A DNA stretch of 64,000 bases, taken from the NCBI GenBank assembly GCA_030583725.1, contig CP129472.1:465902-529901 (forward strand). The letters are read 5' to 3'. Under the pieces are notes generated by a model, which saw only the letters and a program-made list of their open reading frames with translations, did not search any database and was not told the DNA's origin. The DNA is from a bacterium (GTDB lineage Bacteria; Patescibacteriota; Microgenomatia; UBA8517). The translations under genes were made by a program, and so were the position numbers. Positions 28,361 through 59,387 of this stretch are shown piece after piece. The number at the start of each line of letters is the position of its first letter. Position 1 is the stretch's first letter.

Positions 28361-28759
28361 TTAATTTGGGTATATCAAGAGGTTTGGAATACGTGAGAAG
28401 TGGTTAGTGTTCCTTGTAATCAAAGTTATATTGTTAACCATTGCTGTTGCACCAATTATCAAATCAAAATCTTCAAGCCTTGTGCCCTTTTTCTCTAAGT
28501 CTATTTTTAAATCAAGAAATTTATCTGCAATTTTTAAATCAAGATCAAGTATTTTTATATCTAACTCAATTATAAAATTTGTAAATTGTTTAGTTGCCTT
28601 AGTGGGGTCTTTTAATTTTCTAATTCCATATGTTATTTCAGACCAATTGATAATGCTCATAAAAAGACCTTCTTTTGAAATACTAATGATTGAAGAAAGA
28701 TAATCACTTTTATTATTTAAGTGATCAATAATTACATCGCTATCAAGTAATAGCCCCAT
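28361..28759 (-). CDS. PIN-domain toxin (VapC-like)
   Basis: The N-terminus LLLDSDVIIDHL and the distribution of acidic residues fit a PIN fold. It lies immediately downstream of an antitoxin gene. Confidence 0.65.
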   Translation of the reverse strand: MGLLLDSDVIIDHLNNKSDYLSSIISISKEGLFMSIINWSEITYGIRKLKDPTKATKQFTNFIIELDIKILDLDLKIADKFLDLKIDLEKKGTRLEDFDLIIGATAMVNNITLITRNTNHFSRIPNLLIYPN

Positions 28760-30796: not shown

Positions 30797-30821
30797 TTTT
30801 TTTGATTATACTACCCACATG
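30785..30821. promoter_or_regulatory. back-to-back divergent promoters for murJ and rpsT in a 22-bp intergenic gap
   Basis: Plus strand: TTGTTA (30785-30790), a 16-nt spacer, TATACT (30807-30812), then the rpsT ATG at 30819. Minus strand: TATAAT lies 8 nt before the murJ ATG. Confidence 0.4.
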
Positions 30822-31085
30822 CCAGTAACAAAAACAGCCAAAAGAGCTTTGAGGGGTTCAAAGAGGAAAGAAATTGTTAATAAAATTACACTTTCTGGAC
30901 TTGAAATTGCTGTAAAAAAAGCAAAAAAGTCAAAGGATTTAAAGTCAATTCAGAAAGCTACTTCACTTACAGACCGAGCAGCAAAAGAAAACACCATTCA
31001 CAAAAATAAAGCTGGTCGAATTAAGTCACAACTTGCTAAGTTGATGCCAGCAAAACTTCAAACTCTTTCAAAAAAGAACAAATAA
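30819..31085 (+). CDS. rpsT: 30S ribosomal protein S20
   Basis: MPVTKTAKRALRGSKRKEIVNKI... is an S20-type basic N-terminus. Length is 88 aa counted from the internal Met of the track ORF. Confidence 0.8.
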   Translation: MPVTKTAKRALRGSKRKEIVNKITLSGLEIAVKKAKKSKDLKSIQKATSLTDRAAKENTIHKNKAGRIKSQLAKLMPAKLQTLSKKNK

Positions 31086-31100
31086 TGCTAAATTGGGTAT

Positions 31101-31664
31101 ATGCCCATTAATAAGTCCAAAATAATTAATTTACTTCCTAATGATGATTTTCAGAGTACTACTTTTGGTAGGATACTAAAATGGGCGCTGTCCTCGTTCC
31201 GATTTATGGTTATCGTCACTGAACTAATAGTGATGTCTGCATTTTTATCTAGATTTTGGCTAGACGCCAGAAACTCAGACCTGAATGAAGAACTAAATGT
31301 GAGCATGGCTCAAGTCAACGCATACCAAGATGTGGAGCAAGAATTTAGGCTTTATCAAAACCAGCTTCAGGTTGCAAATACTCTATATTTGGATGGAAAA
31401 AACAGTGAATTAATTCAAAAAATTACAAACGTACTTCCAAACGACTTAATTGTTTCATCTATACAACTAACTGGTGAGGACCTCCAAATTAAAGCGGTTT
31501 CTTTTTCAGAACAAGCTGTTGCCCAGTTTTTAGTAAATCTTGAGGGTCTTGAAATATTTGATAAGGTTGAATTATCTCAAGTGGCCTCGAGTATCGAAAA
31601 CAGCTTTGTCACCACGTTCACTATTAGTGCAAAGTACAAACAAAAAACAGGAGGGTTAAACTAA
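31101..31664 (+). CDS. pilN: type IV pilus assembly protein PilN-like
   Basis: The N-terminus INLLP is the PilN hallmark. A single transmembrane segment and a coiled-coil periplasmic domain follow. Confidence 0.65.
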   Translation: MPINKSKIINLLPNDDFQSTTFGRILKWALSSFRFMVIVTELIVMSAFLSRFWLDARNSDLNEELNVSMAQVNAYQDVEQEFRLYQNQLQVANTLYLDGKNSELIQKITNVLPNDLIVSSIQLTGEDLQIKAVSFSEQAVAQFLVNLEGLEIFDKVELSQVASSIENSFVTTFTISAKYKQKTGGLN

Positions 31665-31665
31665 T

Positions 31666-32331
31666 ATGGCACAAGGATGGAGGAGAGACTACTCAAGATA
31701 TAAGGGATTCTTTTTAAATATACTAAATATTTATAAATCCAAACCAACATTGATAGTATATTTGGAAATTATTCTGTCTTTAACAACAATTATAGTGTTT
31801 TCTATCTTTGCCATTAAACCTACGGTTTTGACCATAATTGAACTTAATAACGAAATAGGAAACAAAGAAAGTGTAATTGTCTCTCTAAACCAGAAGATTG
31901 GAAACCTAAAAACAGCATCTTTAGTTTTACAAAACCAGTCCTCAAGATTAAATTTAATTGATCAAGCCGTGCCAAAATCTGCAAACCTTGAAACAGTAAT
32001 TGATCAGGTGGAGAAATTGGCAGCTACCCATCAGGTAGGAATATTAAATATTGCTTCAACAGACTTGTTTCTCTCGGGTGCATCAAGCAAAAAGGCAAAG
32101 GCAGGAGATTTAAAAGCTTTACCTGGTGAAGTGAATGAGCTTAATTTAACAATTTCGGTGACAGGTAGCTATCAAGACCTTTTAAACTTTTTGAAATCTA
32201 TAGAAAACTTAAGACGTCCTATAAAAATAGATACCTTTGTCATCAATGCAACTAACTCATCTGATAGTACTAGGGTTATTGTATTGACACTTACAGGTAG
32301 ATTGCCATTTATCAATCAATCTAAAATATAA
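31666..32331 (+). CDS. pilO: PilO-like pilus assembly protein
   Basis: Bitopic protein with a coiled coil directly after pilN (2-nt gap). The PilO assignment rests on architecture and position. Confidence 0.5.
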   Translation: MAQGWRRDYSRYKGFFLNILNIYKSKPTLIVYLEIILSLTTIIVFSIFAIKPTVLTIIELNNEIGNKESVIVSLNQKIGNLKTASLVLQNQSSRLNLIDQAVPKSANLETVIDQVEKLAATHQVGILNIASTDLFLSGASSKKAKAGDLKALPGEVNELNLTISVTGSYQDLLNFLKSIENLRRPIKIDTFVINATNSSDSTRVIVLTLTGRLPFINQSKI

Positions 32332-32333
32332 AA

Positions 32334-32537
32334 ATGCAAAAAAGTAAATTACCAAGTCTAGTTATATTATTAATACTGACACTAATTACAGTTGTGTTCT
32401 GGATTGTGTTTACTGTTTATAGAACATACATCACAGATGACACCAATGTGAATGTTCCAAGAGAGGTACTACTCCCACTTTCACCAACCCTTAACGAAAG
32501 TACTATTGAAGTTTTGGAATCTAAAATATACCCTTAA
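32334..32537 (+). CDS. small membrane protein with KLPS N-terminal motif
   Basis: 67 aa with an N-terminal hydrophobic helix. The N-terminus MQKSKLPSLVILL resembles that of the next gene (MIKKYKLPTIIGIVVL). Confidence 0.35.
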   Translation: MQKSKLPSLVILLILTLITVVFWIVFTVYRTYITDDTNVNVPREVLLPLSPTLNESTIEVLESKIYP

Positions 32538-32542
32538 AAAGA

Positions 32543-33871
32543 ATGATTAAAAAGTATAAATTACCCACCATAATTGGCATTGTGGTTTTGATTTTTGGAA
32601 TTATTGCTGGAGTTTTTCTAATAAACTCAAGGCAAGTTTTTAAGTTAGGCGCAAACATAGATGCCATTCCTAAAAATGTTAGGTTTACAAACATAACTAA
32701 CTCAAGCTTCACTGTAACTTGGACTACAGATATTGAAAGCACTGGGTTTGTCAAATGGGGAACCAGTGAGCTAACTCTTAGTAAAGTGGCACTTGGCGAA
32801 GGAATTGGAAAAAACTTTGTCCACTCTGCCACAATAATGGGTATAAACCCAAACACAAAAATTTATTTAAAAATAAATTCTAACAGCAATGACTATGACA
32901 ATAATGGTATTCCTTGGCAAGAAACAACAGAAAATATTGTAACAACCTCAGACCAAAATTTAATTGCTTCAGGAAATATTTTAAAACCAGATGCATCAAC
33001 ACCCGCGGTTTCAATTGTTTATTTAACAATTAATGGAATCGTGCTTTCTGCTATTTCATCACAAGGAGGATCATATGTAATACCAATATCAACCTACATA
33101 TCAAACCTACCAGATACCACCCCCATTGAAATATCTGTTCAGGGTGGTCAAAACTCGCTAGCCCAAGCTGTAATTTACCCCAAATATATTAAATCTGTCC
33201 CAACCATTGTACTAGGAAGAACATATGATTTTAGAACTTTGCAAGAGGATATGTCAGGAAACTTACCAGAAAGTAATCTGACCGTTCCTGAGTCTGTAGA
33301 AGTTTCATCAAGATTTGAAGTTACAAAGTCAGAAACTACAAAAACTGTTGATAATGTCCTAGTTGAATCAATTGAAGAAGGGGAAATTATAACAACAGTT
33401 AATCCAGAATTCTTTGGTTCTGGACCAAAAAACACAGAAATTGAAGTAATCGTTGAATCAGAAATGCAATCACAAACAATTACCGTTTCTTCAAATGGAA
33501 GTTGGAAGTGGAGTCCTCCAAATGACCTAGCACCTGGAGAACATAAACTCACTGTTAAATGGAGAGACGCTTCTGGAATTTTAAGAACTATCACAAGAAC
33601 TTTTGTAGTTAGTGCAGCAGAAGGGCCTGCTTTTGAAGCAACACCATCGGCATCCTTAAGTCCTAGTCCAACATCTACAGCTATTGCTACAACTGTTGCA
33701 TCACCTACTGCCAGCTCATCATCAACGCCAATTTCAGCAACACCCACAGCAACACTTCCACCAACACCAGAAACTGGAAGCTTGACAGCTACCATTGGCT
33801 TATTCATAATGGGTATAGGAATACTTTTGTCATCTATTTTTATTTGGAACAAACAATATGCCCAAGGATAA
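32543..33871 (+). CDS. cell-surface protein: N-terminal signal/anchor, FN3-like domain, S/T/P-rich stalk, C-terminal PETG plus transmembrane sorting signal
   Basis: FTVTWTTD, a fibronectin-III-like strand. The C-terminus is ...SPSPTSTAIATTVASPTASSSSTPISATPTATLPPTPETGSLTATIGLFIMGIGILLSSIFIWNKQYAQG: a motif, a hydrophobic helix and a short basic tail. Confidence 0.6.
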   Translation: MIKKYKLPTIIGIVVLIFGIIAGVFLINSRQVFKLGANIDAIPKNVRFTNITNSSFTVTWTTDIESTGFVKWGTSELTLSKVALGEGIGKNFVHSATIMGINPNTKIYLKINSNSNDYDNNGIPWQETTENIVTTSDQNLIASGNILKPDASTPAVSIVYLTINGIVLSAISSQGGSYVIPISTYISNLPDTTPIEISVQGGQNSLAQAVIYPKYIKSVPTIVLGRTYDFRTLQEDMSGNLPESNLTVPESVEVSSRFEVTKSETTKTVDNVLVESIEEGEIITTVNPEFFGSGPKNTEIEVIVESEMQSQTITVSSNGSWKWSPPNDLAPGEHKLTVKWRDASGILRTITRTFVVSAAEGPAFEATPSASLSPSPTSTAIATTVASPTASSSSTPISATPTATLPPTPETGSLTATIGLFIMGIGILLSSIFIWNKQYAQG

Positions 33872-35039
33872 TAATCAAACTCAAAATCCACAGAATAATA
33901 CTGTACCAGTAGCTGATGATATGCCACCAGTAATGATTGAGGATACTTCCCCACCAATGGTTGATACAATTGGACAACCACCGATAAACAACACACCAAC
34001 ACCAACTGCATCTCCTACTACTGACACAGGTTCAGCAGCACCTAGTGATGATATTGTAATGCCATCAGTAGTAACCTCAGGACCAAATGCAAAAGGACCC
34101 TCTAAAAAATTTGGTGGGGGGAAAGTAATTGCAACAATTCTTGGTTTATTCCTCTTAATTGGGGGGGTTGGGGCAGGAACATATCTAGTCCAACAAAATC
34201 AAGATATTAGGGAAAAAGCGTCTTTAGAGTCTGAATATGAAGAGTGTAGAAGAGAAAGTGGAACCCAAGTGTGTAATTGTCGTGTCTACGGAAATTGTAC
34301 CAGACCAGATGCGCACACCGACCCACAAACACCATGGGTAACCGCACCACCTAGTGGGGGCAACACTGAATCCACTTGTCAGTCAAATGGTGGGTATTGG
34401 TGTGATGAAGTTAGTGAATATCCATCGAACAATCTAATACCTGGGTTTTGTAATACATCAGGCCAAACTTGTGGTAATGTTGCTGCCAGTTTAGGTTACA
34501 CAATTAGGATAGGTGAAGGTATGCCTGGCACGTATACTGGAGGATGGTACTGTAGAGTCGGAGTAAATGGATATACTGGAGGACCATGTTTGCAATCCAA
34601 TTCGGTTCCTGGATCATCTCCATACTCACAACCTCCAAATTGTTTCTGTGGAACCATACAGATTGATGGTGGTAATTATGACGGAACATATGTTAGTTCT
34701 TGTGGCTGTGACGACGATAGCGAACCACCAGCAACAACACCTTCAATAACTGCCAAATGCCAAGATGTAAAAGCATATGATGAAAAATGGGCACCATTAA
34801 CATCTGCGCAATTGTCTCAATTAAAAACTGGTGACGATGTTAACTTCTGTGTAACAGGATCTGCAAGTTCTGGATCATTTAATAAAGCTAGATTTACAAT
34901 TAACACTGTTCAACAAGCAGAAACAACAACAATTAGACCAACAAGCCCTGACTATTGCCAAAGTTACACAATTCCTGCTGGAGTTACAACCTTTAATGTG
35001 ACAGCTCAAATAAACCATACGTCATTGGGTTGGAAATAA
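33858..35039 (+). CDS. cysteine-rich extracytoplasmic protein with Pro/Thr-rich N-terminal region and single transmembrane segment
   Basis: 393 aa. The first 90 aa are P/T/N-rich, followed by a transmembrane segment (VIATILGLFLLIGGVGAGTYLV). About 19 Cys are spread over the ectodomain (CNCRVYGNC, CQSNGGYWC, CFCG, CGCDDD...). Confidence 0.55.
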   Translation: MPKDNNQTQNPQNNTVPVADDMPPVMIEDTSPPMVDTIGQPPINNTPTPTASPTTDTGSAAPSDDIVMPSVVTSGPNAKGPSKKFGGGKVIATILGLFLLIGGVGAGTYLVQQNQDIREKASLESEYEECRRESGTQVCNCRVYGNCTRPDAHTDPQTPWVTAPPSGGNTESTCQSNGGYWCDEVSEYPSNNLIPGFCNTSGQTCGNVAASLGYTIRIGEGMPGTYTGGWYCRVGVNGYTGGPCLQSNSVPGSSPYSQPPNCFCGTIQIDGGNYDGTYVSSCGCDDDSEPPATTPSITAKCQDVKAYDEKWAPLTSAQLSQLKTGDDVNFCVTGSASSGSFNKARFTINTVQQAETTTIRPTSPDYCQSYTIPAGVTTFNVTAQINHTSLGWK

Positions 35040-35052
35040 TAGTGATAAATAT

Positions 35053-35643
35053 ATGAAAAATAAATTTACAATGATAGGGATAGTCTTAACAACATTAATC
35101 TTAGCTGGTGTTGCCATATTTACAGCACTTAGACTATATGAAACAAGAGACACAGCTGTTGCACCAAACGTACCATCAAGTAGACCTGCTGCTCAAGTTC
35201 AGCCAACTGAGCAAGCATCAAGTTGTAATTTAAGTTTTACTATCCAAACGTCAACGGCTACACCTACAGCCACTGGGTCAGCAACACCAACTGCAACAGG
35301 ATCAGCAACTCCTACGGCTACTGCAACAGCAACTTCCACAGCAACCGCTACTGCTACAGCTTCACCTGTTCCACTATGTAATAGTAGTTGTACATCAAAC
35401 ACTCAGTGTCCAAGTGGCTTGATGTGTTACATCCCAAGTGGAGCAACAGCTGGAAATTGTAGAAACACTCAATGTCTATCATCAACCAACTGTGTTTGTT
35501 CTACAGTTACAGCCTCACCAAGTACTACTGCTACTACATCCTCAGAACCAACACTTCCAGAAGTTGGTACAACATGGCCAACAATACTTGGTACAGCTGT
35601 TGGAATATTAATCTTAATTGGAAGTTTGCTTCTAGCTTTATAA
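35053..35643 (+). CDS. surface protein: signal/anchor, TPTATGSA tandem repeats, Cys-rich module, C-terminal LPEVG plus hydrophobic helix
   Basis: The C-terminus is ...SEPTLPEVGTTWPTILGTAVGILILIGSLLLAL. There are 10 Cys in CxxxC-type spacing. The T/A/P-rich linker repeats. Confidence 0.55.
   Translation: MKNKFTMIGIVLTTLILAGVAIFTALRLYETRDTAVAPNVPSSRPAAQVQPTEQASSCNLSFTIQTSTATPTATGSATPTATGSATPTATATATSTATATATASPVPLCNSSCTSNTQCPSGLMCYIPSGATAGNCRNTQCLSSTNCVCSTVTASPSTTATTSSEPTLPEVGTTWPTILGTAVGILILIGSLLLAL
35256..35366 (+). repeat. in-frame tandem repeats encoding (TPTATGSA)n / TATA-rich linker
   Basis: acacctacagccactgggtcagca and acaccaactgcaacaggatcagca are repeated, followed by gctactgcaacagca variants. 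Confidence 0.5.
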
Positions 35644-35690: not shown

Positions 35691-38096
35691 TTATCTCCAA
35701 GAGTTAAACCAATAATAACTTTCGTCTAGCCAAACTGGAATTCTTAATCCCGTCCAGTGAGGGTAAAAATAAATAAATAATATAAAACTAACCCCAAAGA
35801 AGTAAGGGATTATTTTGGGATAACGACGAAGAACAAATCCACTAGCGATAGCTAAAAATGGAATCGATGGGAGGTAGTGATATAAAAACATAATCCTAGG
35901 ACTGGCCAGCCAAGGAATAAAAAAAATCAAATAACTAAACACCACAAAACCCAACTTCTTGTTCTTTTCTATATATGAAATTGCAATTGATAAAATTATA
36001 GAAAATAGACCAAACCAAAAAACGATTGGGTTACCCAAGGCATAAATCTTTGCAACCTGGTCATCAATCACCTTTCCGTCATATAAATATAAAGGTCTTA
36101 CAAGTAAGGGCCAAGACCAAGCAGGTGACGTATAAGGGTGCTGGGCTTCAAGATTTGTATGGTACCACCACATTTGCTTTTGGACCTCAATAAATTGTCC
36201 CCAAGTGTGTCCAGTTTTAAACATCAAGCCATAACTTGCTACATAAATTGCCAGTGGAATAACCAAGAAAGAAAGATATGAATAAGAAATTTTCTTTCTA
36301 AACACAAAATGAGAAATAAATATAATTGGTAATGTATAAATAGCTGACCACTTAGAAGCAATTGCCAAACCAAAAACTACTGCTGACATAAAATTCCTAT
36401 TTTTTGCAAAAAGATATACGGACAACAACGAGAAGAACAATACATAGACATCATTCATTCCCATCCTGCTTAGGACTAAAGGCAAGCCTTCTAAACTAAA
36501 CACGCCAGCAGATAAAATACCAACCAGCCTGTCTTTGAAAATTAAGACAGACAATAAATATATTAAATAGATTGATAAAGTCCCCAATACTGCCTGAGGA
36601 ATTCTCCAACCAAAAGAATTTTCACCAAATAACTTCATTCCTAAAGTCATACCTAATTTTGAAAGAGGTGGATGTGTCCATTCATATGCAAATCCCTCGG
36701 GGTGTGGATTCCACCACTCCCAGGCTTTTGGGTCATTATGTAGTACTAATTTTGCCGTAAATGAATGATAAATCTCATCAAAGTACATTTCTTTAATGCT
36801 CCCCAGCGAATATATTCTCGAGGCAAAACTGAAAACTAAAATTATGACAAGTAAAATTTTGGTTTTTTTAACTGATATGTCTGATGTTTCAAACACTTTG
36901 GTAAAACTATTTCTTTTAAAATTAACATTCAAGCTATATTTAAATTTTTTAAAGATTGCGGTGATAGACAATAACAATAGTGAAATGTTGGTGACAATGA
37001 AAAACTTAATTAGAAAGGGATTAAATACTTCTTTAAAGTTTTTTGATATCCACTGAAAAGCATAGTATAAATTGGCAAGATAAGTTACAGACAACCCACC
37101 ATAAACAACAAGTAATATTGGTGCATTTACAGAGGCTACAACTAGGGGAGCAAAAACTGGCAATAAATGTCTTTCGTGAATTCTTGTTAGAAACAAAAAA
37201 GTAATAAGTAGAGAAAGACTCGCAATCAGGTATTCTCCATTTGCAGTTCTCTTTTTATAAACAACCAAGGTAACTAACGTAACCAAAATAATTGACACTC
37301 CCAAACCTATCCATACTGTTATATTATCCGGCCTCCAAAACCCAAAAAGACCCCAAAAAGAAAATGCATTTACTGAACCATATGGATACTGGCCAGATGA
37401 AATAGAGAATCTTTCCAAGATAAAATCAATTAGGTTGGACTTGTTGTTAAATGGTATAAACCCTAAGACAAAAACAGACAACCCCACGACAGAATAGTTA
37501 AGATATTCAACTAGTTTCTTTCTCTGAGTAATGAACAGGTACAAAATGGCGGGTAAAACAAAGGCTGCTTGTGGTTTGACTAAGGTACCCAGTGCTAAAG
37601 CAACTGCAGAGACAAACAGATTTTTTGAAAACATATATATAGCAAAAAGAGAGAATAGCGCAGTTAAACTATCAACTTGACCCCAAAGTGACGAGTTTGC
37701 AAAAACAGCTGGATTAAAAAGATATAGAGCTGATGCCATAAGAGCTATTTTTTTCCCCTTAATTTCATTTACTATTCTGTAGATTAGATAACCTGTTAAA
37801 ACGTCAGAAATAATGGCTGGAAACTTAAAAATAACAATTTGGAGTTCTGGTAAAAATAAATTTATCTTGGCTAGTAAAAACAAAACATAAAGGTAGCCAG
37901 GGAAATAATCGGACCAACTGTTATAAAAGTTTTTAAAACCTGAGTCTGACAAAGAGTTGCCCCAGGCAACAAAAGTTCCATAGTCTAATTCTAGTGTTCC
38001 GAAGTTGGCTAAAAAAATTCTAAAAACTAAAGCAGAAAAAAAGACCATTAAGATGTTAAAATCTAAAGAATGAAAGTAGTTTTTAAGTTTTTGCAT
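35691..38096 (-). CDS. polytopic GT-C glycosyltransferase, apparent fusion of two GT-C modules (C-terminal module PMT/GT39-like with DE motif)
   Basis: 801 aa with more than 20 predicted transmembrane helices. The second module starts near residue 405; YFDEIYH sits just after its first transmembrane segment, as in PMT/ArnT-type enzymes. Confidence 0.65.
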   Translation of the reverse strand: MQKLKNYFHSLDFNILMVFFSALVFRIFLANFGTLELDYGTFVAWGNSLSDSGFKNFYNSWSDYFPGYLYVLFLLAKINLFLPELQIVIFKFPAIISDVLTGYLIYRIVNEIKGKKIALMASALYLFNPAVFANSSLWGQVDSLTALFSLFAIYMFSKNLFVSAVALALGTLVKPQAAFVLPAILYLFITQRKKLVEYLNYSVVGLSVFVLGFIPFNNKSNLIDFILERFSISSGQYPYGSVNAFSFWGLFGFWRPDNITVWIGLGVSIILVTLVTLVVYKKRTANGEYLIASLSLLITFLFLTRIHERHLLPVFAPLVVASVNAPILLVVYGGLSVTYLANLYYAFQWISKNFKEVFNPFLIKFFIVTNISLLLLSITAIFKKFKYSLNVNFKRNSFTKVFETSDISVKKTKILLVIILVFSFASRIYSLGSIKEMYFDEIYHSFTAKLVLHNDPKAWEWWNPHPEGFAYEWTHPPLSKLGMTLGMKLFGENSFGWRIPQAVLGTLSIYLIYLLSVLIFKDRLVGILSAGVFSLEGLPLVLSRMGMNDVYVLFFSLLSVYLFAKNRNFMSAVVFGLAIASKWSAIYTLPIIFISHFVFRKKISYSYLSFLVIPLAIYVASYGLMFKTGHTWGQFIEVQKQMWWYHTNLEAQHPYTSPAWSWPLLVRPLYLYDGKVIDDQVAKIYALGNPIVFWFGLFSIILSIAISYIEKNKKLGFVVFSYLIFFIPWLASPRIMFLYHYLPSIPFLAIASGFVLRRYPKIIPYFFGVSFILFIYFYPHWTGLRIPVWLDESYYWFNSWR

Positions 38097-39233
38097 ATAT
38101 TAGTCCCTGTTTTACTTTTTATTGGAACTTTTCTAATTTATAAAAATATCTATTCTGAACCAAGAAACTGGTATGACCACTATTTATACCTAACAAAGTC
38201 AATTATCGTGGGTAAGGTGGACATACCTGACCTGCCATCATTTTATCACGACAAGATAGAATTTGAAGGTAGAAATTACATACCTTTCCCCCCAGGTGCA
38301 TCGTTTTTACTCGTTCCTTTTGTATTACTAAAAAACGATATAACACAACAAGTAGTCTCTATTTTAATAGGGGCATTAAATGTATCCCTAATTTATTTTC
38401 TGTTAATGCATTTTACATCAAGGATAAACTCAGTACTTCTTTCATTATTCTTTGCATTTGGCACAGTAGCTTTTTGGTCATCTATCGTTGGAACAACTTG
38501 GTTTTTTGCCCATACTGTTGCCATATTCTTTATTTTAATATCATTAATATTCCATTTTAAAAAGTTGCATTTTATTTCCGGAGTTTTTTTTGCACTTGCT
38601 GCTTTGACAAGAATACCAATTATCTTAGCTGGACTATTTTTCCTTCTGGAACTGCTTAAACAAAAAAAGAAACTTGCCATATTCTTACTTGGTGCTTTTG
38701 TTTTTGTACCCATCTATTTGGGATACAACTGGATGAGGTTTGGAAATGTTTTTGAGAACGGGTACAAGCAAGTATATCAGCAATACAAGGACTCTAGCTT
38801 AAAATATTCTACTGGAAACAACTTTGGTTACTTCAATATTAAAAATGTTCCACTTCATTTATATACCTTTCTAGTTATGCCCCCTGACGTAAAAATATTA
38901 GATGGAAACATAACCGATCTTAAACCCTCGCCATTTGGAATGGGTATCATTTTTACTTCACCTTTGTTATTACTTGTCTTGTGGCCCAAGTTTAAAAATA
39001 AGATTGAAAGAAGTTCATATCTTTCTGCAATATTATGTTCATTGCCAGGTTTGTTACATTACTCTCAAGGGTGGGTGCAATTTGGCTACAGGTTTGTTTT
39101 AGATTTTATTGTTTTTCTTATGATTGTCTTAAGTCTTCGTTTTAAATTAAATATTTTTAACCTTGCCCTAATTATTATTTCTGTTATCGTTAATTTTTGG
39201 GGAGTATTATGGGCAATTCAATTAGGTTGGTAA
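38070..39233 (+). CDS. GT-C-type membrane glycosyltransferase (paralog A)
   Basis: 387 aa and polytopic. The C-terminal QFGYRFVLDF motif is shared with the next gene. Confidence 0.55.
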   Translation: MKVVFKFLHILVPVLLFIGTFLIYKNIYSEPRNWYDHYLYLTKSIIVGKVDIPDLPSFYHDKIEFEGRNYIPFPPGASFLLVPFVLLKNDITQQVVSILIGALNVSLIYFLLMHFTSRINSVLLSLFFAFGTVAFWSSIVGTTWFFAHTVAIFFILISLIFHFKKLHFISGVFFALAALTRIPIILAGLFFLLELLKQKKKLAIFLLGAFVFVPIYLGYNWMRFGNVFENGYKQVYQQYKDSSLKYSTGNNFGYFNIKNVPLHLYTFLVMPPDVKILDGNITDLKPSPFGMGIIFTSPLLLLVLWPKFKNKIERSSYLSAILCSLPGLLHYSQGWVQFGYRFVLDFIVFLMIVLSLRFKLNIFNLALIIISVIVNFWGVLWAIQLGW

Positions 39234-40396
39234 TTATGCGTCATAGAATTAAGTTGATAATATTATTATTAGCAATTGGATTATTTATAATTTATCTTTT
39301 CACCTCAGGAGGGAACACACCATTTAACCACTTTGTGTTATTGGCTGATGCTTTTTTAAAGGGTAACTTTTTTGTTGAGGGCATATACCCTTGGATTGAA
39401 AAAGCACCACTTGATGAGTATAGGTTTTTTATAGTTAATCCACCAATGCCTGCAATTTTACTAATCCCGTTTGTCAAAATATGGAGTTTAAATTTCCCAC
39501 AGCATATTTTTGCACACATAATTGGGGTTTTACTTACTGTTTCCACGTTTTATATGTCGATGATAATTAAAAAAGATTTAAGACTTGCAATTTGGTCAGC
39601 AATATTAATCGGTTTGGGAAGTATTGTCTGGTTTCTTTCAAGCGTTGGATCTGTCTGGTACTTAGGCCAAATAACAATGGCCCTATTTCTAACCTTATTA
39701 ATAAATGAGGCCTTAGTTAAAAAAAGACCTATTGTTATGGGAATCTTGTTGGGATGTGCCTATTTATCAAGAGTTCATTTGATACTAACCTTTCCAATAT
39801 TTGCTTATATACTTTGGCAAAAAAATAAGAGGTTAAATTCAATTTTTTACTTTGGTTTGACTTTTTCATTATTTTTTTTCTTTGACATGTTTTACAACTT
39901 TAGTAGATATGGTTCGTTTTTCAACCAAGGATACTTTTTAATTCCAGGAACTGAAAATGAACCATGGTTTGCAAAAGGCATTATGCATCCAAGTTATATT
40001 TTGGAGGACTTAAAAATAGCGTTTTTGGCAATGCCAAAAGTTATAAGTGAATTCCCATACATTCGTCCTTCGTGGGCAGGTATGGCAATATGGCTTACTA
40101 CTCCAGCCTTTATTTTTGCCTTTGGTGCAAAATGGAAAGATTTAACCACCAAGCTATTTAGCCTAGCGATTCTTTTAATATTTATAGTAGTGGGAATCCA
40201 CGGAGGAACGGGGTTTGCCCAATTTGGATATAGATTTGCAGTAGATTTTTATCCCTTTCTAACCTTTCTAACTATTAAGGGTGTTGCAAATTATGATGGT
40301 CCCAAGAAAATCCACTGGATACTATTGTTCGTGGGTATACTAGTCAATTTTTGGGGAGTTGTTTGGATTAATAAGTTTGGGTGGGTTGGGTGGTAA
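39197..40396 (+). CDS. GT-C-type membrane glycosyltransferase (paralog B)
   Basis: 399 aa and polytopic. FAQFGYRFAVDF parallels the paralog A motif. The first-loop sequence IEKAPLDEYRFFIVNPPMPAILLIPF is similar to FEGRNYIPFPPGASFLLVPF in paralog A. Confidence 0.55.
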   Translation: MGSIMGNSIRLVIMRHRIKLIILLLAIGLFIIYLFTSGGNTPFNHFVLLADAFLKGNFFVEGIYPWIEKAPLDEYRFFIVNPPMPAILLIPFVKIWSLNFPQHIFAHIIGVLLTVSTFYMSMIIKKDLRLAIWSAILIGLGSIVWFLSSVGSVWYLGQITMALFLTLLINEALVKKRPIVMGILLGCAYLSRVHLILTFPIFAYILWQKNKRLNSIFYFGLTFSLFFFFDMFYNFSRYGSFFNQGYFLIPGTENEPWFAKGIMHPSYILEDLKIAFLAMPKVISEFPYIRPSWAGMAIWLTTPAFIFAFGAKWKDLTTKLFSLAILLIFIVVGIHGGTGFAQFGYRFAVDFYPFLTFLTIKGVANYDGPKKIHWILLFVGILVNFWGVVWINKFGWVGW

Positions 40397-41315
40397 CCAG
40401 AAGCTCTTGTTTAAGCCAATTTTGAAACTCTATCCAAGAACCAGATGAGGGCAGAAATACATATTGTCTATCATATCTTCTGTCATCCTGAGAAACAGTA
40501 AACATCTCTTCAGGTATGGATAAGAATTTGACGCTATCCCTTGCATCGTAGACAAATTTTATCAAAGCTATTGACCTATCAAAACTAATGTCGGTTTCAA
40601 GATGAGAGAGAACTGTATTATAGACACCCCGAACAACTTTAAAATCTAAAAATACTTTCCAAGATAACATTTTTTCTTTTATGGCTGATATTACATTTTG
40701 TTGTCTTTTTTCTCTGGCAAGCTCAGATCCCTCATCCAAAACTGCATTTCTACTTCTTACAAACTTTAGGGCAGTTTCACCATCCATAATTTGTTTTCCC
40801 TCAGTAAACTGCACTGTTTCGTATCTGCATGCGTAGGTACGATCTCCGTCACACAAATCATTTTCTTTGCCAGCAATCGGGTACTTTTCATCAACAAAAG
40901 ATTTATCAACATCAACCTCAATTCCACCCACTACGTCTATTAAATCCGTAAAGAGGGTAAAGTCTACGACTAGAAAATTGTCAGGAGTAAAACCCGTAAC
41001 CGACTTGACACTTTCTCCCGCCATTTCAAAACCACCATAGTGATAAGCAGTATTTAGTTTTGCTCTAATTGCAGTTATCCATATGTCTCGAGGTAAAGAC
41101 AAGACACCAACTGATTTATTATCACTATCAAAGTGGACCACCATTATTGTATCTGTCAAGTTGGGTGCAATATGTCCCTCACCTCCTTTACCTAGAATCA
41201 AAATTGTTTGATTGTCTGTTACTTTTGGTAGACTTTTAAAGGTAAAGTATCCAGCAAGGGTAGTTGAAACTACCATAATCAACAGAAATAGGAGAACAAA
41301 TTTAAAGACCCGCAT
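40368..41315 (-). CDS. LytR-CpsA-Psr (LCP) family glycopolymer phosphotransferase
   Basis: N-terminal transmembrane segment. ILILGKGG...DTIMVVHFD....LSLPRDIWI matches the LCP core. Confidence 0.75.
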   Translation of the reverse strand: MRVFKFVLLFLLIMVVSTTLAGYFTFKSLPKVTDNQTILILGKGGEGHIAPNLTDTIMVVHFDSDNKSVGVLSLPRDIWITAIRAKLNTAYHYGGFEMAGESVKSVTGFTPDNFLVVDFTLFTDLIDVVGGIEVDVDKSFVDEKYPIAGKENDLCDGDRTYACRYETVQFTEGKQIMDGETALKFVRSRNAVLDEGSELAREKRQQNVISAIKEKMLSWKVFLDFKVVRGVYNTVLSHLETDISFDRSIALIKFVYDARDSVKFLSIPEEMFTVSQDDRRYDRQYVFLPSSGSWIEFQNWLKQELLVTTQPTQTY

Positions 41316-53106: not shown

Positions 53107-53108
53107 AA

Positions 53109-54062: not shown

Positions 54063-54108
54063 ATATATTTGATTTTATAGTTTCTCTATTCAAGTTTGCT
54101 ACTTCGTA

Positions 54109-56006: not shown

Positions 56007-57032
56007 ATGGGTACAATTAATCTTTTTTTTACACCCCTACTCACGGCTTTTTTAATATCAGCCTTAGTTACTCCTGTTGTAATTATATATGCCAAAAAAC
56101 TTGGTATTATGGATGACCCAAGAAAAACTAACCATCCAAAAGTAATCCACACGAAGCCAATCCCAAGAGGTGGGGGTATTCCAGTTTTTATCGCAATATT
56201 TATTGCTTCACTTATCTTTATTCCTATAGACAAACATATTGTCTCGATTTTAATCGGAGCGGGAATCGTTTTTGTGATGGGTCATCTTGATGATAAATAT
56301 AATTTAAATCCATATCTTAGATTGGCTTTGGGATTTTTGGCAGCCTACATTCCTGTATCTCAAGGTATTGGAATTAGTTTTTTAACTAACCCTTTTGGTG
56401 GCATTATTGACCTGTCTAACCCACTTTTTTCTAATGTATTCGCCCTTCTTTGGATTGTTTTTATGATGAATGTGGTCAATATGGGCGCCAAAGGAATTGA
56501 TGGCCAATTGTCAGGTGTAACAGTAATTTCTGCTTTAACCATAACCGCACTCTCGTTTTCCTACTTTACCGATACAACCCAATGGCCTGTTATTCTTTTA
56601 ACCGGCATCACCGCAGGTGCTTTTTTGGGTTTTTTTCTTTGGCACAAGTTTCCACAAAAAATTATGCCAGGGTATGGTGGTTCAACTCTGGCGGGATATA
56701 TGTTAGCCATAGCATCAATACTGTCAACAACTAAGGTGGGAACATTGATAGTAGTTTTAGGTGTACCCCTTATTGATACAGGGTACACAATAATGCGCAG
56801 AATAATGTCAGGAAAGTCTCCTGTTTGGGGTGACAGAGGGCATCTACACCACAGACTCCTAGACTATGGTTTAAGCAAGAAACAGGTTTCACAGGTTTAC
56901 TGGTCACTCACAGCGATACTTGGAATTCTGGCTCTCAATTTGAATAGCACATACAAGTTGTATACAATCATTGGTGTAATACTGGTTGTGGGCGGTTTAA
57001 TATTATTTTTAACCAGAAAGAAGAATGACTAA
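56007..57032 (+). CDS. polyprenyl-phosphate N-acetylhexosamine-1-phosphate transferase (WecA/TagO/MraY family)
   Basis: Motifs HLDDKYNL and NVVNMGAKGIDGQLSG (NxxNxxDGIDGL). Ten or more transmembrane helices. Confidence 0.75.
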   Translation: MGTINLFFTPLLTAFLISALVTPVVIIYAKKLGIMDDPRKTNHPKVIHTKPIPRGGGIPVFIAIFIASLIFIPIDKHIVSILIGAGIVFVMGHLDDKYNLNPYLRLALGFLAAYIPVSQGIGISFLTNPFGGIIDLSNPLFSNVFALLWIVFMMNVVNMGAKGIDGQLSGVTVISALTITALSFSYFTDTTQWPVILLTGITAGAFLGFFLWHKFPQKIMPGYGGSTLAGYMLAIASILSTTKVGTLIVVLGVPLIDTGYTIMRRIMSGKSPVWGDRGHLHHRLLDYGLSKKQVSQVYWSLTAILGILALNLNSTYKLYTIIGVILVVGGLILFLTRKKND

Positions 57033-57984
57033 CTTAATTTGGCAGGCGATGAACACAGCTAAAGAGGCTATAAGAGTGGCGAGGCCTATCCATTGGGTCA
57101 AAAATTTTGCGCTTTTTGCAGCTATTTTTTTAACAGGCACATTGTTTGAAAAGGGCTTGTTGGCAAATGTGATTATCTCATTTATCTCTTTCTCACTAGC
57201 CACCTCCGCAACATATATTTTTAACGACATAATGGATGCTAAAAGAGATGTTCTTCATCCTCACAAAAAGAATCGGCCAATAGCATCAGGAAAGTTACCT
57301 CTTAATTTGGCAATTTTTGAAATGCTAATCCTACTGTTTGTTTCTTTGGTTATAGCTGAAGCATTAAACCATTTGTTTTTTGTACTTTTGGTTTTCTACT
57401 TAAGTATGCAGGTCTTATACAGCTTAGGTTTGAAAAATATTCACGTAATTGATATTTTAATTATTGCCACGGGTTTTATTTTAAGGGTTTATGCAGGAGC
57501 CCTGGTAATAGATGCACATCTTTCCGTCTGGTTTTTGCTTTGTGTAGTCTCAGCCTCACTATTTTTGGCGGCAGGTAAAAGAAGGTCTGAAATAAATTTA
57601 TCCAATGCAGAAGATGGTAGAACACGCTTAAGTCTTTCTAAGTACTCGAGAGAGCTTCTAAACAGCTATGTAACAATGTTTGGTAATGCCACATGGATGA
57701 GTTGGGGTTTGTACACATTTTATGAAAGTCCAAGAGCTTCTCTGGACTTTTGGCTTTTATTGGCCGAGGTTTCAAAAGCAACAACTGTTAACAAGTTGAT
57801 GATGGCAACAATCCCTTTAGTAATTTTTGGCATTATGAGATACCAAGTTCTAATTTTTGAAGGTAAGTCAGAAGCTCCAGAAAAACTTTTCTTGTCAGAC
57901 AAGGCCCTCATCATTTCAATTAGTCTTTGGGTAGGATTTGTTTACTTCATCCTCTATTCAGGAGTATCAGTTAGGGGAATTTAG
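57025..57984 (+). CDS. UbiA-family prenyltransferase resembling decaprenyl-phosphate phosphoribosyltransferase (DPPR synthase)
   Basis: NDIMDAKRD matches the NDxxDxxxD motif. Polytopic and about 320 aa, the typical size of DPPR synthases. Confidence 0.65.
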   Translation: MTNLIWQAMNTAKEAIRVARPIHWVKNFALFAAIFLTGTLFEKGLLANVIISFISFSLATSATYIFNDIMDAKRDVLHPHKKNRPIASGKLPLNLAIFEMLILLFVSLVIAEALNHLFFVLLVFYLSMQVLYSLGLKNIHVIDILIIATGFILRVYAGALVIDAHLSVWFLLCVVSASLFLAAGKRRSEINLSNAEDGRTRLSLSKYSRELLNSYVTMFGNATWMSWGLYTFYESPRASLDFWLLLAEVSKATTVNKLMMATIPLVIFGIMRYQVLIFEGKSEAPEKLFLSDKALIISISLWVGFVYFILYSGVSVRGI

Positions 57985-58824: not shown

Positions 58825-58891
58825 TCATCTAATATTATCACGAGCCAAGCTCGTTACAAGTCTAGCTTCTTAATTATTTTTAAAAAAACAC

Positions 58892-58920
58892 TTGACAAAG
58901 AAAATTAAAATTATTATTAT
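58892..58920 (+). promoter_or_regulatory. sigma70 promoter for hsp20 (TTGACA-17-TATTAT)
   Basis: TTGACA at 58892-58897 and TATTAT at 58915-58920. Confidence 0.55.
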
Positions 58921-58924
58921 TTAC

Positions 58925-58951
58925 TTGGCACTCAGTTACATAGAGTGATAA
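58925..58951. promoter_or_regulatory. CIRCE element upstream of hsp20 (TTGGCACTC-N9-GAGTGATAA)
   Basis: Inverted repeat closely matching the CIRCE consensus. It lies between the -10 box and the AGGAGG RBS at 58962-58967. Confidence 0.65.
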
Positions 58952-58982
58952 TAGAAATGAAAGGAGGTGGTAATAAAAAAAT

Positions 58983-59357: not shown

Positions 59358-59360
59358 AGC

Positions 59361-59386
59361 GTAGCCATATGATACAATATGGCTAC
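59361..59386 (+). other. perfect 10-bp inverted repeat hairpin between hsp20 and tRNA-Cys
   Basis: GTAGCCATAT-gataca-ATATGGCTAC. It ends 1 nt before the first nucleotide of the tRNA, and no U-tract follows. Confidence 0.5.
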
Positions 59387-59387
59387 T

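What the first reader, a model, noticed from the sequence alone, without database searches (positions are those of the whole stretch)
35691..41315. GT-C glycosyltransferase array (one double-module, two paralogs) plus LCP enzyme immediately downstream of the T/S/P-rich surface proteins
The three polytopic GT-C enzymes use lipid-linked sugar donors, and their active sites face outside the cell. One module has the PMT/ArnT-type DE motif (YFDEIYH). PMT-type enzymes O-mannosylate Thr/Pro-rich secreted proteins in Actinobacteria, and the adjacent genes encode exactly such T/P-rich stalks. The LCP enzyme could attach glycopolymer to peptidoglycan. Together this suggests a dedicated protein O-glycosylation or cell-wall glycopolymer system.
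Basis: inference. Interest (0 to 1): 0.7.

Follow-up and report, generated by a model that had tools for sequence, protein, structure and literature searches.

The report
Surface-glycosylation gene island in Woesebacteria
An uncultured ultra-small (CPR) bacterium carries a conserved gene cluster with four outward-facing, lipid-sugar-dependent sugar-transferase modules (two fused in one protein) and a cell-wall ligase, which most likely sugar-coats the proline/threonine-rich stalks of surface proteins; the enzyme kinds are known, the arrangement has not been described.

Summary
Window 35691-41315 encodes an 801-aa protein made of two GT-C modules, two paralogous about 390-aa GT-C proteins, and an LCP enzyme. 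It lies next to the only three T/S/P-rich proteins among 47 genes in the window. The source is a Woesebacteria/Microgenomates (CPR) genome.

The C-terminal module is a true PMT-type (GT39-like) enzyme. It has the PMT and PMT_4TMC domains, the FDE(I/V)YH and HPPLAK motifs, and the Trp-rich PAWSWP/beta-hairpin element that in M. tuberculosis PMT recognises Pro-rich Ser/Thr peptides. The N-terminal module is a generic Dol-P-Man-type GT-C and is not securely GT87.

The fusion and the gene order are conserved in at least 70 loci at 40-72% identity, but housekeeping neighbours are conserved too. New points:
- lcp and the fused gene always share a strand, and they are translationally coupled in some species.
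- The slot between them swaps in different GT-C families from species to species.
- In a second lineage the fused gene sits with a GT2, EamA-type flippase candidates and an epimerase, without LCP.

Best reading (about 0.45): extracytoplasmic O-mannosylation and extension on Pro-rich S/T stalks. Main rival (about 0.3): wall-polysaccharide decoration followed by LCP ligation. This is a new variant of a known kind, of moderate interest.

The parts
36957..38096 (-). N-terminal GT-C module (aa 1-380) of the 801-aa fused protein. It is a generic Dol-P-Man-type GT-C and the candidate glycan-extending module.
   Evidence: Pfam PMT_2 6.8e-10 when scanned alone; among 27 orthologous modules, 15 hit PMT_2, 5 PIG-U and only 2 GT87. 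Best PDB sequence match is GPI mannosyltransferase 1, E 4e-5. Invariant residues: D38, W61/D63/Y64, K91, W138-G-Q-x-D142, K174, H307-E-R. hhalign to the C module: 97%.
36873..36956 (-). Inter-module linker (aa 381-408). It is K/R-rich and probably cytoplasmic.
   Evidence: AF2 pLDDT is below 50 at aa 388-399. The sequence FKKFKYSLNVNFKRNSFTKVFETSDISVKKTK fits the positive-inside rule (inference).
35691..36872 (-). C-terminal PMT-type (GT39-like) module (aa 409-801, plus stop codon). It is the candidate protein O-mannosyltransferase.
   Evidence: All 24 of 24 orthologous modules hit PMT_4TMC, PMT and PMT_2. The profile matches yeast Pmt1 (6p25) at E 4e-19, aligning YFDEVYH to VFDEVHF (D77/E78), HPPLAK to HPPLAK, and WR to Pmt1 R138. 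Foldseek top hits are Pmt4, Pmt1 and Pmt2 (E 1.5e-11 to 5e-6) against ArnT at 0.03-0.1. Invariant P658-A-W660-S-W662-P663, Y670 and L687-G-N-P690 flank a predicted beta hairpin.
38070..39233 (+). 387-aa minimal GT-C enzyme of a family without a Pfam model.
39197..40396 (+). 399-aa paralogue of the 387-aa GT-C.
   Evidence: 25% identity, E 1e-22 over the full length. Its subfamily lacks the Asp aligned to the PMT Asp but conserves the motif ppWLE. The start codon is uncertain (TTG, overlapping the upstream gene by 37 nt).
40368..41315 (-). LCP (LytR-CpsA-Psr) phosphotransferase with an N-terminal TM anchor and an outside-facing domain.
   Evidence: PF03816 1.9e-36; TIGR00350 108.6 bits against a cut-off of 62.3. 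Best solved relatives are TagV, TagT and MsrR (E 4e-15), with the motifs LTDTIMVV, SLPRD, FVRSR and REKRQQ aligned. It is on the same strand as the fused GT-C in all 70 loci that hold both, and its stop overlaps the GT-C start (ATGA) in L081 and L084.
32543..33871 (+). 442-aa surface protein and candidate acceptor: N-terminal TM/signal, fn3/Big_13 domains, T/S/P stalk at aa 360-419, then PETG + TM + basic tail.
   Evidence: Big_13 4e-10. The T/S/P tract is mapped. 59 of 62 orthologues have Px[TSA]G plus a K/R tail.
33858..35039 (+). 393-aa bitopic protein with a 17-Cys ectodomain. Its T/P tract (aa 36-66) lies before the TM and is probably cytoplasmic.
   Evidence: Orthologues are present in almost all related loci.
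35053..35643 (+). 196-aa T/S/P-rich surface protein and the best candidate acceptor: N-terminal TM, stalks at aa 60-107 and 142-178, a Cys knot, then LPEVG + hydrophobic C-terminus.
   Evidence: 40% T+S+P. 63 of 65 orthologues have LPxxG in the last 40 aa, and none has K/R in the last 10. The gene is convergent with the fused GT-C, separated by 47 nt.
31101..32537 (+). PilN-like, PilO-like and 67-aa TM protein genes heading the same + strand gene string as the three surface proteins (context).
   Evidence: PilN 5.5e-12, PilO 6e-7. The 67-aa ORF is at 32334-32537. The genes are spaced by 1-13 nt or overlap.
56007..57984 (+). Possibly connected donor/primer genes 15 kb away: a WecA-like polyprenyl-P HexNAc-1-P transferase overlapping a decaprenyl-phosphate phosphoribosyltransferase (UbiA family).
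   Evidence: Glycos_transf_4 1.9e-22. TIGR02380 wecA 98 bits, below its cut-off; NF008978 228.6 bits, above its cut-off of 207.

Best explanation
This is the core of a conserved Woesebacteria envelope-glycosylation island that works on the outer face of the cytoplasmic membrane, using polyprenyl-phosphate-linked single sugars as donors.

Proposed mechanism:
1. The 801-aa protein is a two-step enzyme. Its C-terminal PMT-type module transfers the first hexose (most likely mannose) onto Ser/Thr in Pro-rich, unstructured stretches of proteins as they emerge from the membrane.
2. The fused N-terminal Dol-P-Man-type GT-C module extends that sugar. In Actinobacteria the same two steps are done by separate enzymes, GT39 PMT and GT87 PimE.
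3. The 387-aa and 399-aa paralogues occupy a species-variable cassette slot. They add or vary further residues.
4. The most obvious acceptors are the extracytoplasmic T/S/P stalks of the sortase-signal-bearing proteins encoded next door (442 aa and 196 aa). Other secreted proteins may also be modified.
5. The co-oriented, sometimes translationally coupled LCP enzyme acts in the same compartment. It either ligates a wall glycopolymer or, as LcpA does in Actinomyces, adds a lipid-linked glycan to an anchored protein.

Shown: the folds, motifs, fusion, paralogy, gene order and its conservation. Inferred: the donor sugar, the acceptors, the order of steps and the role of LCP.

For: (2) The C module keeps the EL4 C-terminal element as invariant residues next to a predicted beta hairpin: PAWSWP, then Y670, then LGNP. 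In MtPMT the corresponding element (PWTWP, WW-like) is required for activity and binds Pro-rich S/T peptides (PMC12331936).

(4) The linker is K/R-rich, so both first loops (D38; D440/E441) are placed outside the membrane (inference).

(5) The only three T/S/P-rich genes of the window abut the array. Two of them have extracytoplasmic stalks directly before conserved sortase-like signals. The adjacency holds in most of about 65 species-level loci at 40-72% identity.

(6) In a second lineage with a different gene order (L077 and L086-L088), the fused gene lies with a GT2 of 243-253 aa, EamA-type small transporters, an epimerase and more GT-Cs. This is the standard synthase, flippase and GT-C set. 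In L086/L077 it lies beside a 1747-aa Cys-rich anchored protein with a PTPTPT tract, and there is no LCP.

(7) There is precedent in Gram-positive bacteria. PgfS/PgfE/PgfM1/PgfM2 and GtrB/PgtC2 glycosylate LPXTG adhesins and S/T-rich disordered regions outside the cell (PMC12041528).
Against: - No direct link to the neighbouring proteins. The genes are convergent. Housekeeping genes are equally syntenic. An inversion in L014 separates the two gene sets.
- Actinobacterial pmt genes are not linked to their substrates (my knowledge).
- The NCBIfam PMT equivalog scores 55 bits against a cut-off of 800, so this is not an orthologue of characterised bacterial PMTs.
- The N module cannot be assigned to GT87.
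- No polyprenyl-P-mannose synthase or flippase was found in the 64-kb window.
- The tight lcp coupling, and the WecA-like and DPPR-synthase genes, fit a wall polysaccharide at least as well.
- The T/P tract of the 393-aa protein is probably cytoplasmic.
- No glycoprotein data exist for any CPR bacterium in the searched literature.
Confidence: 0.45

Rival explanations
1. Wall-polysaccharide decoration. A polymer is primed on polyprenyl phosphate by the WecA-like enzyme and exported. The GT-C modules then elaborate it outside the membrane with side chains from polyprenyl-P-sugars, including polyprenyl-P-pentose made by the DPPR-synthase homologue. The LCP enzyme then ligates it to peptidoglycan. 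The variable GT-C slot diversifies the side chains. Known parallels are streptococcal and lactococcal rhamnopolysaccharides and mycobacterial arabinogalactan.
For: - lcp and the fused GT-C share a strand in all 70 loci that hold both, and they are translationally coupled (ATGA, or a 6-nt gap) in L081, L084 and L024.
- The slot between them holds different GT-C families in different species: the 387/399 type, PIG-V-like, PMT_2, DUF2298, TMEM260-like and YfhO. This pattern is typical of surface-polysaccharide variation loci.
- The window encodes a WecA-like GT4, a decaprenyl-phosphate phosphoribosyltransferase above its NCBIfam cut-off, and a sugar-nucleotide dehydratase/epimerase.
- The LCP is closest to the teichoic-acid ligases TagV, TagT and MsrR.
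- The locus lies among MurJ and two FemAB genes.
Against: - Every characterised GT39 enzyme acts on protein. The C module retains the Pro-rich-peptide recognition element (PMC12331936).
- In the second lineage the fused gene occurs without LCP.
- Four collinear loci show no LCP hit (L056, L057, L066, L070).
- The WecA and DPPR genes are 15 kb away, and their linkage to the array was not tested.
Confidence: 0.3
2. No functional unit. The PMT-type enzyme is a general, proteome-wide O-mannosyltransferase, the LCP is the housekeeping wall-polymer ligase, and the 387/399 proteins serve another pathway. They sit together, and next to the surface proteins, only because Woesebacteria genomes are small, compact and collinear.
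For: - The conserved block runs from DnaK/GrpE/HrcA through MurJ to UvrD, FemAB and AddA. It therefore includes clearly unrelated genes.
- The four genes of the finding lie on alternating strands.
- The L014 inversion and the L077 lineage show that the adjacency can be lost.
Against: - Translational coupling of lcp with the fused gene.
- Repeated insertion of specifically GT-C genes into one slot.
- The fused gene re-associates with glycosylation genes and a T/P-rich giant surface protein in an unrelated context.
Confidence: 0.15
3. Lipoglycan synthesis. The GT-C modules build a membrane-anchored mannan or lipomannan-like glycolipid on a lipid acceptor, as PimE, MptA and MptB do in Corynebacterineae.
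For: The N module and the 387-aa protein resemble lipid- or glycan-acting mannosyltransferases: GPI-MT-I, ALG3/ALG12 and PimE. There are weak GT87 and Mannosyl_trans4 hits.
Against: The PMT-specific features of the C module. No PI-mannoside or priming genes were seen in the window.
Confidence: 0.1

Closest known systems
Actinobacterial protein O-mannosylation (Ppm1 synthase, GT39 PMT e.g. Rv1002c, GT87 PimE elongator)
   Same: An outside-facing GT-C initiator with FDE, HPPLAK and Arg motifs, no MIR domain, and the Trp-rich EL4 C-terminal element that selects Pro-rich S/T peptides. A second GT-C extends the mannose. The donor is polyprenyl-P-Man (PMC12757957, PMC12331936).
   Different: Here the two GT-Cs are fused into one 801-aa polypeptide, with the elongator-like module first. 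The N module is not demonstrably GT87. The gene is coupled to lcp and to a variable GT-C slot. The host is a CPR bacterium. The NCBIfam PMT equivalog score is far below its cut-off.
Streptococcal extracytoplasmic protein O-glycosylation (Pgf operon PgfS/PgfE/PgfM1/PgfM2; GtrB + PgtC2)
   Same: A GT-A lipid-sugar synthase, an epimerase and two GT-C enzymes glycosylate LPXTG adhesins and Ser/Thr-rich disordered stalks outside the cell (PMC12041528). The L077-lineage clusters have the same parts list.
   Different: The GT-C families differ (YfhO or PgfM types there, a PMT type here). No GT-A synthase was found in this window. The sugars are unknown.
Actinomyces oris LcpA-GspA-SrtA
   Same: An LCP enzyme glycosylates a sortase-anchored surface protein (PMC6381275). 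Here an LCP gene lies beside genes for proteins with sortase-like C-terminal signals.
   Different: No GT-C partner is known there. Here the LCP is closest to teichoic-acid ligases, and its acceptor is untested.
Three-component side-chain glycosylation of Gram-positive wall polysaccharides and teichoic acids (GacI/GacL, SccN, CsbB/YfhO) followed by LCP ligation
   Same: Lipid-linked monosaccharide donors, outside-facing GT-Cs and an LCP ligase in one envelope pathway, with GT-C content that varies from strain to strain (PMC12041528 for SccN and YfhO; the rest from my knowledge).
   Different: Those GT-Cs are not PMT/GT39-type, and none is a double-module fusion.
Mycobacterial arabinogalactan pathway (WecA, UbiA/DPPR synthase, Aft/Emb GT-Cs, Lcp1)
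   Same: The window encodes a WecA-like enzyme, a DPPR-synthase homologue above its cut-off, several GT-Cs and an LCP.
   Different: No DprE1/E2, galactan or Emb/Aft-type enzymes were identified. AftA and AftB are only mid-ranking structural matches. These genes are 15 kb from the array.

Membership tests
GT39 / PMT protein O-mannosyltransferases (C module, aa 409-801) | Pfam PMT (PF02366) and PMT_4TMC (PF16192) above their gathering scores | tested here: met
   PMT 34.7 bits (cut-off 22.7) and PMT_4TMC 69.5 bits (cut-off 32.4). Both are found in 24 of 24 orthologous modules and in all 120 listed homologues.
GT39 / PMT protein O-mannosyltransferases (C module, aa 409-801) | Asp-Glu motif in the first outside loop, plus the HPPLAK and Arg138 (Pmt1) equivalents | tested here: met
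   D440/E441, H475-P-P and R498 are invariant and align to Pmt1 D77/E78, HPPLAK and R138.
GT39 / PMT protein O-mannosyltransferases (C module, aa 409-801) | EL4 C-terminal Trp-rich helix and beta hairpin (the WW-like acceptor element of bacterial PMT) | tested here: met
   Invariant W660, W662, P663, Y670 and G688-N-P690. Predicted strands at 670-677 and 680-685. The motif is defined in PMC12331936. The match rests on sequence and predicted structure only.
GT39 / PMT protein O-mannosyltransferases (C module, aa 409-801) | Orthology to characterised bacterial PMT (NCBIfam equivalog NF058602) | tested here: not met
   55.4 bits against a cut-off of 800. It is a distant relative, not an orthologue.
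GT39 / PMT protein O-mannosyltransferases (C module, aa 409-801) | Transfers mannose from polyprenyl-P-Man to Ser/Thr of proteins | not testable with these tools
   This needs enzymology or glycoproteomics.
GT87 (PimE-type polyprenol-P-Man alpha-1,2-mannosyltransferases) (N module, aa 1-380) | Pfam GT87 (PF09594) above its gathering score on the module itself | tested here: not met
GT-C superfamily (N module, 387-aa and 399-aa proteins) | Polytopic GT-C fold | tested here: met
GT-C superfamily (N module, 387-aa and 399-aa proteins) | Conserved acidic residue in the first outside loop | tested here: inconclusive
   N module: D38 and D63 are conserved. The 387 subfamily conserves WYDHY and YhDk. 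The 399 subfamily lacks the aligned Asp and conserves only a Glu, in ppWLE.
LCP (LytR-CpsA-Psr) glycopolymer phosphotransferases | LCP catalytic domain above the curated cut-offs, with an N-terminal membrane anchor | tested here: met
   PF03816 125.9 bits (cut-off 24.6) and TIGR00350 108.6 bits (cut-off 62.3). It aligns to TagV with the Asp and Arg motifs kept. Acceptor specificity was not tested.
Sortase substrates (LPXTG-type cell-wall sorting signal) (442-aa and 196-aa proteins) | LPXTG-like pentapeptide, hydrophobic segment, basic tail | tested here: inconclusive
   442 aa: PETG + TM + K; 59 of 62 orthologues have Px[TSA]G plus K/R. 196 aa: LPEVG plus a hydrophobic end but no basic tail in any of 65 orthologues. 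No NCBIfam LPXTG model reaches its cut-off. A sortase gene exists at 4555-5238.
Three-component extracytoplasmic glycosylation (GT2 lipid-sugar synthase + small flippase + GT-C) | A cognate GT2 synthase and a GtrA/EamA-type flippase encoded with the GT-C | tested here: not met
   Neither was found in this 64-kb window; there is only a weak GT2 hint in the 497-aa protein, E 0.01. Both are present beside the fused gene in the second lineage (L077, L086-L088). The rest of this genome could not be inspected.

The most novel reading that the evidence does not exclude
Woesebacteria carry a single-polypeptide 'initiate-and-extend' protein O-mannosylation enzyme. It is operonically tied to an LCP transferase and to a cassette slot where different GT-C families are swapped in and out between species. 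Together these build species-specific glycans on the stalks of sortase-anchored surface proteins. This would be a protein-borne counterpart of O-antigen variation, and it could govern host attachment or phage evasion in these episymbiotic ultra-small bacteria.
Probability: 0.2. Interest if true: 0.7.

Novelty: new variant of a known kind. Interest (0 to 1): 0.5.

Why it matters
CPR/Patescibacteria are thought to live attached to other cells, yet the chemistry of their surfaces is almost unknown. My literature searches found nothing on PMT-type, LCP or GT-C systems in them.

- If the fused enzyme O-mannosylates Pro-rich stalks, PMT-type protein glycosylation extends from Actinobacteria and eukaryotes to a deep bacterial radiation.
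- The fusion would be natural 'Rosetta-stone' evidence that a PMT initiator and a second GT-C act on the same glycan.
- The hypervariable GT-C slot between lcp and the fused gene would mark a surface-variation locus useful for strain typing and for studying host or phage specificity.
- The 387/399 family (about 3800 clusters at 50% identity, with no Pfam model) is an unclassified minimal GT-C family that merits curation.

Tried and rejected
- GT87 label for the N module: rejected after the modules were scanned separately. The score pooled stretches from both modules.
- ArnT/lipid-A-type assignment for the PMT module: rejected. Foldseek gives ArnT E 0.03-0.1 against PMTs at 1e-11 to 1e-6, and PMT_4TMC is present.
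- Sequence searches of the 387-aa protein and its family profile against PDB: nothing found. Only the fold comparison classified it.
- Exact-sequence look-up of the 801-aa product: nothing found, because the public gene call starts at Met17.
- Promoter and terminator scans of 30.6-41.5 kb: promoter-like sites were no more frequent than in shuffled sequence (39 observed, 39.7 expected) and terminator-like sites were within two standard deviations (13 against 7.5, sd 3.3), so the scans were uninformative.
- PDB searches with the 497-aa and 519-aa membrane proteins of the second cluster: nothing found.
- NCBIfam scan for known C-terminal sorting domains in the 196-aa and 442-aa tails: nothing above cut-off.
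- Synteny as proof of function: discounted, because unrelated housekeeping genes are equally conserved.
- A crude hydropathy script gave overlapping segments and was not used for topology. The topology statements rest on homology and on the K/R content of the linker.

Full report
WHAT IS THERE. The window has about 35% GC. The finding's span holds four ORFs exactly as described: 35691-38096(-) 801 aa, 38070-39233(+) 387 aa, 39197-40396(+) 399 aa and 40368-41315(-) 315 aa. Upstream on the + strand lies a tightly spaced gene string: ribosomal protein S20, PilN-like, PilO-like, a 67-aa TM protein, a 442-aa fn3/Big_13 protein, a 393-aa Cys-rich protein and a 196-aa T/S/P-rich protein. It is flanked by MurJ and HrcA-GrpE-DnaK-DnaJ. 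Downstream lie UvrD/PcrA, two FemAB-like genes and an AddA-like helicase-nuclease. The 387-aa protein is identical to NCBI 'MAG: hypothetical protein QY322_02860 [bacterium]' on an 842-kb contig. All close relatives come from Woesebacteria/Microgenomates (Patescibacteria/CPR) MAGs.

THE C MODULE IS A GENUINE PMT-TYPE ENZYME.
- All 24 orthologous C modules hit PMT, PMT_4TMC and PMT_2.
- The profile finds yeast Pmt1 (6p25) at E 4e-19, then Pmt4. The alignment puts YFDEVYH on Pmt1 VFDEVHF (D77/E78), HPPLAK on HPPLAK, and an invariant Arg on Pmt1 R138.
- Foldseek ranks Pmt4, Pmt1 and Pmt2 first (E 1.5e-11 to 5e-6). ArnT scores only 0.03-0.1.
- The recent MtPMT study shows that bacterial PMTs select Pro-rich S/T peptides through an EL4 C-terminal WW-like element (helix PWTWP, a Tyr, a beta hairpin, L-x3-P), and that W362A abolishes activity (PMC12331936). 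The window protein has invariant P658-A-W660-S-W662-P663, Y670, predicted strands at 670-677 and 680-685, and L687-G-N-P690.
- It is nevertheless only a distant relative of characterised bacterial PMTs: the NCBIfam equivalog scores 55 bits against a cut-off of 800.

THE N MODULE IS A GENERIC DOL-P-MAN-TYPE GT-C. The GT87 hit pooled stretches from both modules. Scanned alone, the module hits GT87 in only 2 of 27 orthologues, against 15 for PMT_2 and 5 for PIG-U. Its best solved sequence relative is GPI mannosyltransferase 1, E 4e-5. It conserves D38, W61/D63/Y64, K91, W138-G-Q-x-D142, K174 and H307-E-R.

THE LCP. It scores PF03816 1.9e-36 and TIGR00350 above its cut-off. It has an N-terminal anchor. 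It is closest to the teichoic-acid ligases TagV, TagT and MsrR, and the conserved Asp and Arg motifs align.

THE NEIGHBOURING PROTEINS. Only 3 of the window's 47 genes have a 40-aa stretch with at least 50% T+S+P, and they are these three.
- The 442-aa protein has a stalk at aa 360-419 running into PETG + TM + basic tail. 59 of 62 orthologues have Px[TSA]G plus K/R.
- The 196-aa protein has stalks at aa 60-107 and 142-178, a Cys cluster, and LPEVG followed by a hydrophobic C-terminus. 63 of 65 orthologues have LPxxG, and none has a basic tail.
- The T/P tract of the 393-aa protein (aa 36-66) lies before its single TM, on the K-rich and probably cytoplasmic side.
- A sortase gene lies at 4555-5238.

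CONSERVATION. The fusion is full length in all 120 listed homologues and in all the recovered species-genome loci that are not cut by a contig end, at 40-74% identity; 182 species genomes matched. Across the loci that are long enough, the gene order is AddA, FemB, FemA, UvrD, LCP, zero to three GT-C genes, the fused GT-C, the 196-type, the Cys-type, the Big_13-type, PilO, PilN, MurJ, HrcA. Because unrelated housekeeping genes are just as conserved, this is largely genome collinearity and only weak evidence of function. L014 has an inversion whose breakpoint falls exactly between the fused gene and the surface-protein genes.

NEW OBSERVATIONS THAT BEAR ON FUNCTION.
- (a) lcp and the fused gene are on the same strand in all 70 loci that hold both. 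In L081 and L084 the lcp stop overlaps the GT-C start (ATGA), and in L024 the gap is 6 nt. The ancestral unit therefore looks like an lcp-to-fused-GT-C operon.
- (b) The interval between them ranges from an overlap to 4.2 kb. It holds different polytopic genes in different species: the 387/399 type, PIG-V-like, PMT_2, DUF2298, TMEM260-like (5e-26), YfhO, stand-alone N-module-like and C-module-like genes, and some with no family. It behaves as a GT-C cassette slot.
- (c) In a second lineage with another gene order (L077 and L086-L088, where the fused proteins are about 40% identical to the window's), there is no LCP or PilN/O. The fused gene instead sits with one or two EamA-type small transporters, a 243-253-aa GT2, an NAD epimerase/dehydratase, further PMT/PMT_2 and PIG-V-like GT-Cs and a methyltransferase. 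In L086/L077 it lies next to a 1747-aa, 118-Cys, C-terminally anchored protein with a PTPTPT tract. That is the classical synthase, flippase and GT-C parts list. It supports lipid-linked monosaccharide donors.
- (d) Fifteen kb away, the window itself encodes a WecA-like GT4 overlapping a decaprenyl-phosphate phosphoribosyltransferase (228.6 bits, cut-off 207), plus a sugar-nucleotide dehydratase and two more unclassified membrane proteins. The organism therefore probably also makes a lipid-primed wall polymer and polyprenyl-P-pentose donors.

INTERPRETATION. The best-supported mechanism has three parts: extracytoplasmic O-glycosylation initiated by the PMT module on Pro-rich S/T stretches; extension by the fused N module, which parallels GT39 PMT plus GT87 PimE in Actinobacteria (PMC12757957); and diversification by the cassette GT-Cs. 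The neighbouring stalk proteins are plausible acceptors but unproven ones. The role of LCP is open. It may ligate a wall polymer, or it may glycosylate an anchored protein as A. oris LcpA does for GspA (PMC6381275). The main rival is side-chain decoration of a wall polysaccharide before LCP ligation. That rival is favoured by the lcp coupling, the cassette behaviour and the WecA/DPPR genes, and disfavoured by the PMT-specific acceptor element and by the LCP-less second lineage. I put the readings at roughly 0.45 (protein glycosylation), 0.30 (wall polysaccharide), 0.15 (no functional unit) and 0.10 (lipoglycan).

COMPARISON AND NOVELTY. Every component belongs to a known superfamily. Databases already label the fused protein 'glycosyltransferase family 39' or 'dolichyl-phosphate-mannose-protein mannosyltransferase'. 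GT-C-dependent glycosylation of S/T-rich stalks is established in streptococci, through Pgf and GtrB/PgtC2 (PMC12041528). Four things are not described in the literature I could search: the two-GT-C fusion, its coupling to lcp, the hypervariable GT-C slot, and PMT-type machinery in CPR bacteria. I therefore rate this a new variant of a known kind, with interest 0.5.

Noticed in passing
window 56007-57984 (+): A WecA-like polyprenyl-phosphate HexNAc-1-P transferase overlaps by 8 nt a UbiA-family gene. The UbiA gene scores above the NCBIfam cut-off for decaprenyl-phosphate phosphoribosyltransferase (228.6 bits against 207), the enzyme that starts arabinofuranosyl-donor synthesis in mycobacteria. 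This was unexpected in a CPR genome. It implies polyprenyl-P-pentose donors for some GT-C enzymes.
   Followed up: partly
related loci L001-L085, the interval between the LCP gene and the fused GT-C gene (in the window, 38097-40367): A hypervariable slot. It ranges from an overlap to 4.2 kb and carries 0-3 polytopic genes of different GT-C families in different species (387/399 type, PIG-V-like, PMT_2, DUF2298, TMEM260-like, YfhO, and some with no family). lcp and the fused gene are translationally coupled where the slot is empty.
   Followed up: yes
window 35053-35643 and its orthologues in L001-L085: The 196-aa family ends in a conserved 'LPxxG-[TVI]-x-WPT + hydrophobic + LLAL-COOH' signal with no basic tail (63 of 65 orthologues). 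No NCBIfam sorting-signal model matches it. It may be a CPR-specific C-terminal sorting or anchoring signal.
   Followed up: partly
window 30693-35643 (+): A tightly packed gene string of S20, PilN-like, PilO-like, a 67-aa TM protein and three bitopic surface proteins, with no PilM/PilQ or pilin nearby. It is conserved across Woesebacteria. It may be a surface apparatus distinct from a canonical type IV pilus alignment complex.
   Followed up: partly
window 4555-7302 (-): A sortase (best NCBIfam match is class C-like, far below cut-off) lies immediately downstream of a 687-aa protein with no family and a central hydrophobic segment. This may be a sortase and substrate pair.
   Followed up: no
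window 38048-38096: The divergent 801-aa and 387-aa genes overlap by 27 nt at their 5' ends if the first ATG of each is used. A public gene call starts the 801-aa protein at Met17 (785 aa). Homologues, however, cover the longer N-terminus.
   Followed up: partly
window 51613-55668: A second envelope cluster: a 497-aa protein with N- and C-terminal TM segments and a faint GT2 hint, a dTDP-glucose-4,6-dehydratase-like enzyme, and a 519-aa polytopic protein with a weak PTPS_related (PF10131) hit. Neither membrane protein has a solved relative by sequence.
   Followed up: partly
L077, L086, L087, L088: A second lineage (40-44% GC) carries the same two-module fusion in a different glycosylation cluster (EamA transporters, GT2, epimerase, extra GT-Cs, methyltransferase). 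In L086 it lies beside a 1747-aa protein with 118 Cys and PT repeats. The L077 record is titled 'Methanosarcinales archaeon', which is probably a binning or label error.
   Followed up: partly
record titles of L008, L009, L015, L024-L026 and others: Many loci that are clearly Woesebacteria-like come from third-party MAG records titled 'uncultured Gammaproteobacteria bacterium'. These are apparent taxonomic mislabels in the public records.
   Followed up: no
L014: An inversion of the HrcA-to-Cys-rich-protein block, with one breakpoint exactly between the fused GT-C gene and the 196-type gene. It is the only rearrangement seen among the collinear loci.
   Followed up: no
window 28361-28759 (-) and 57967-60257: A PIN-domain gene is inserted between hrcA and murJ. 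A PEGA+SH3 protein and an M23 peptidase flank a tRNA-Cys gene (59388-59460).
   Followed up: no
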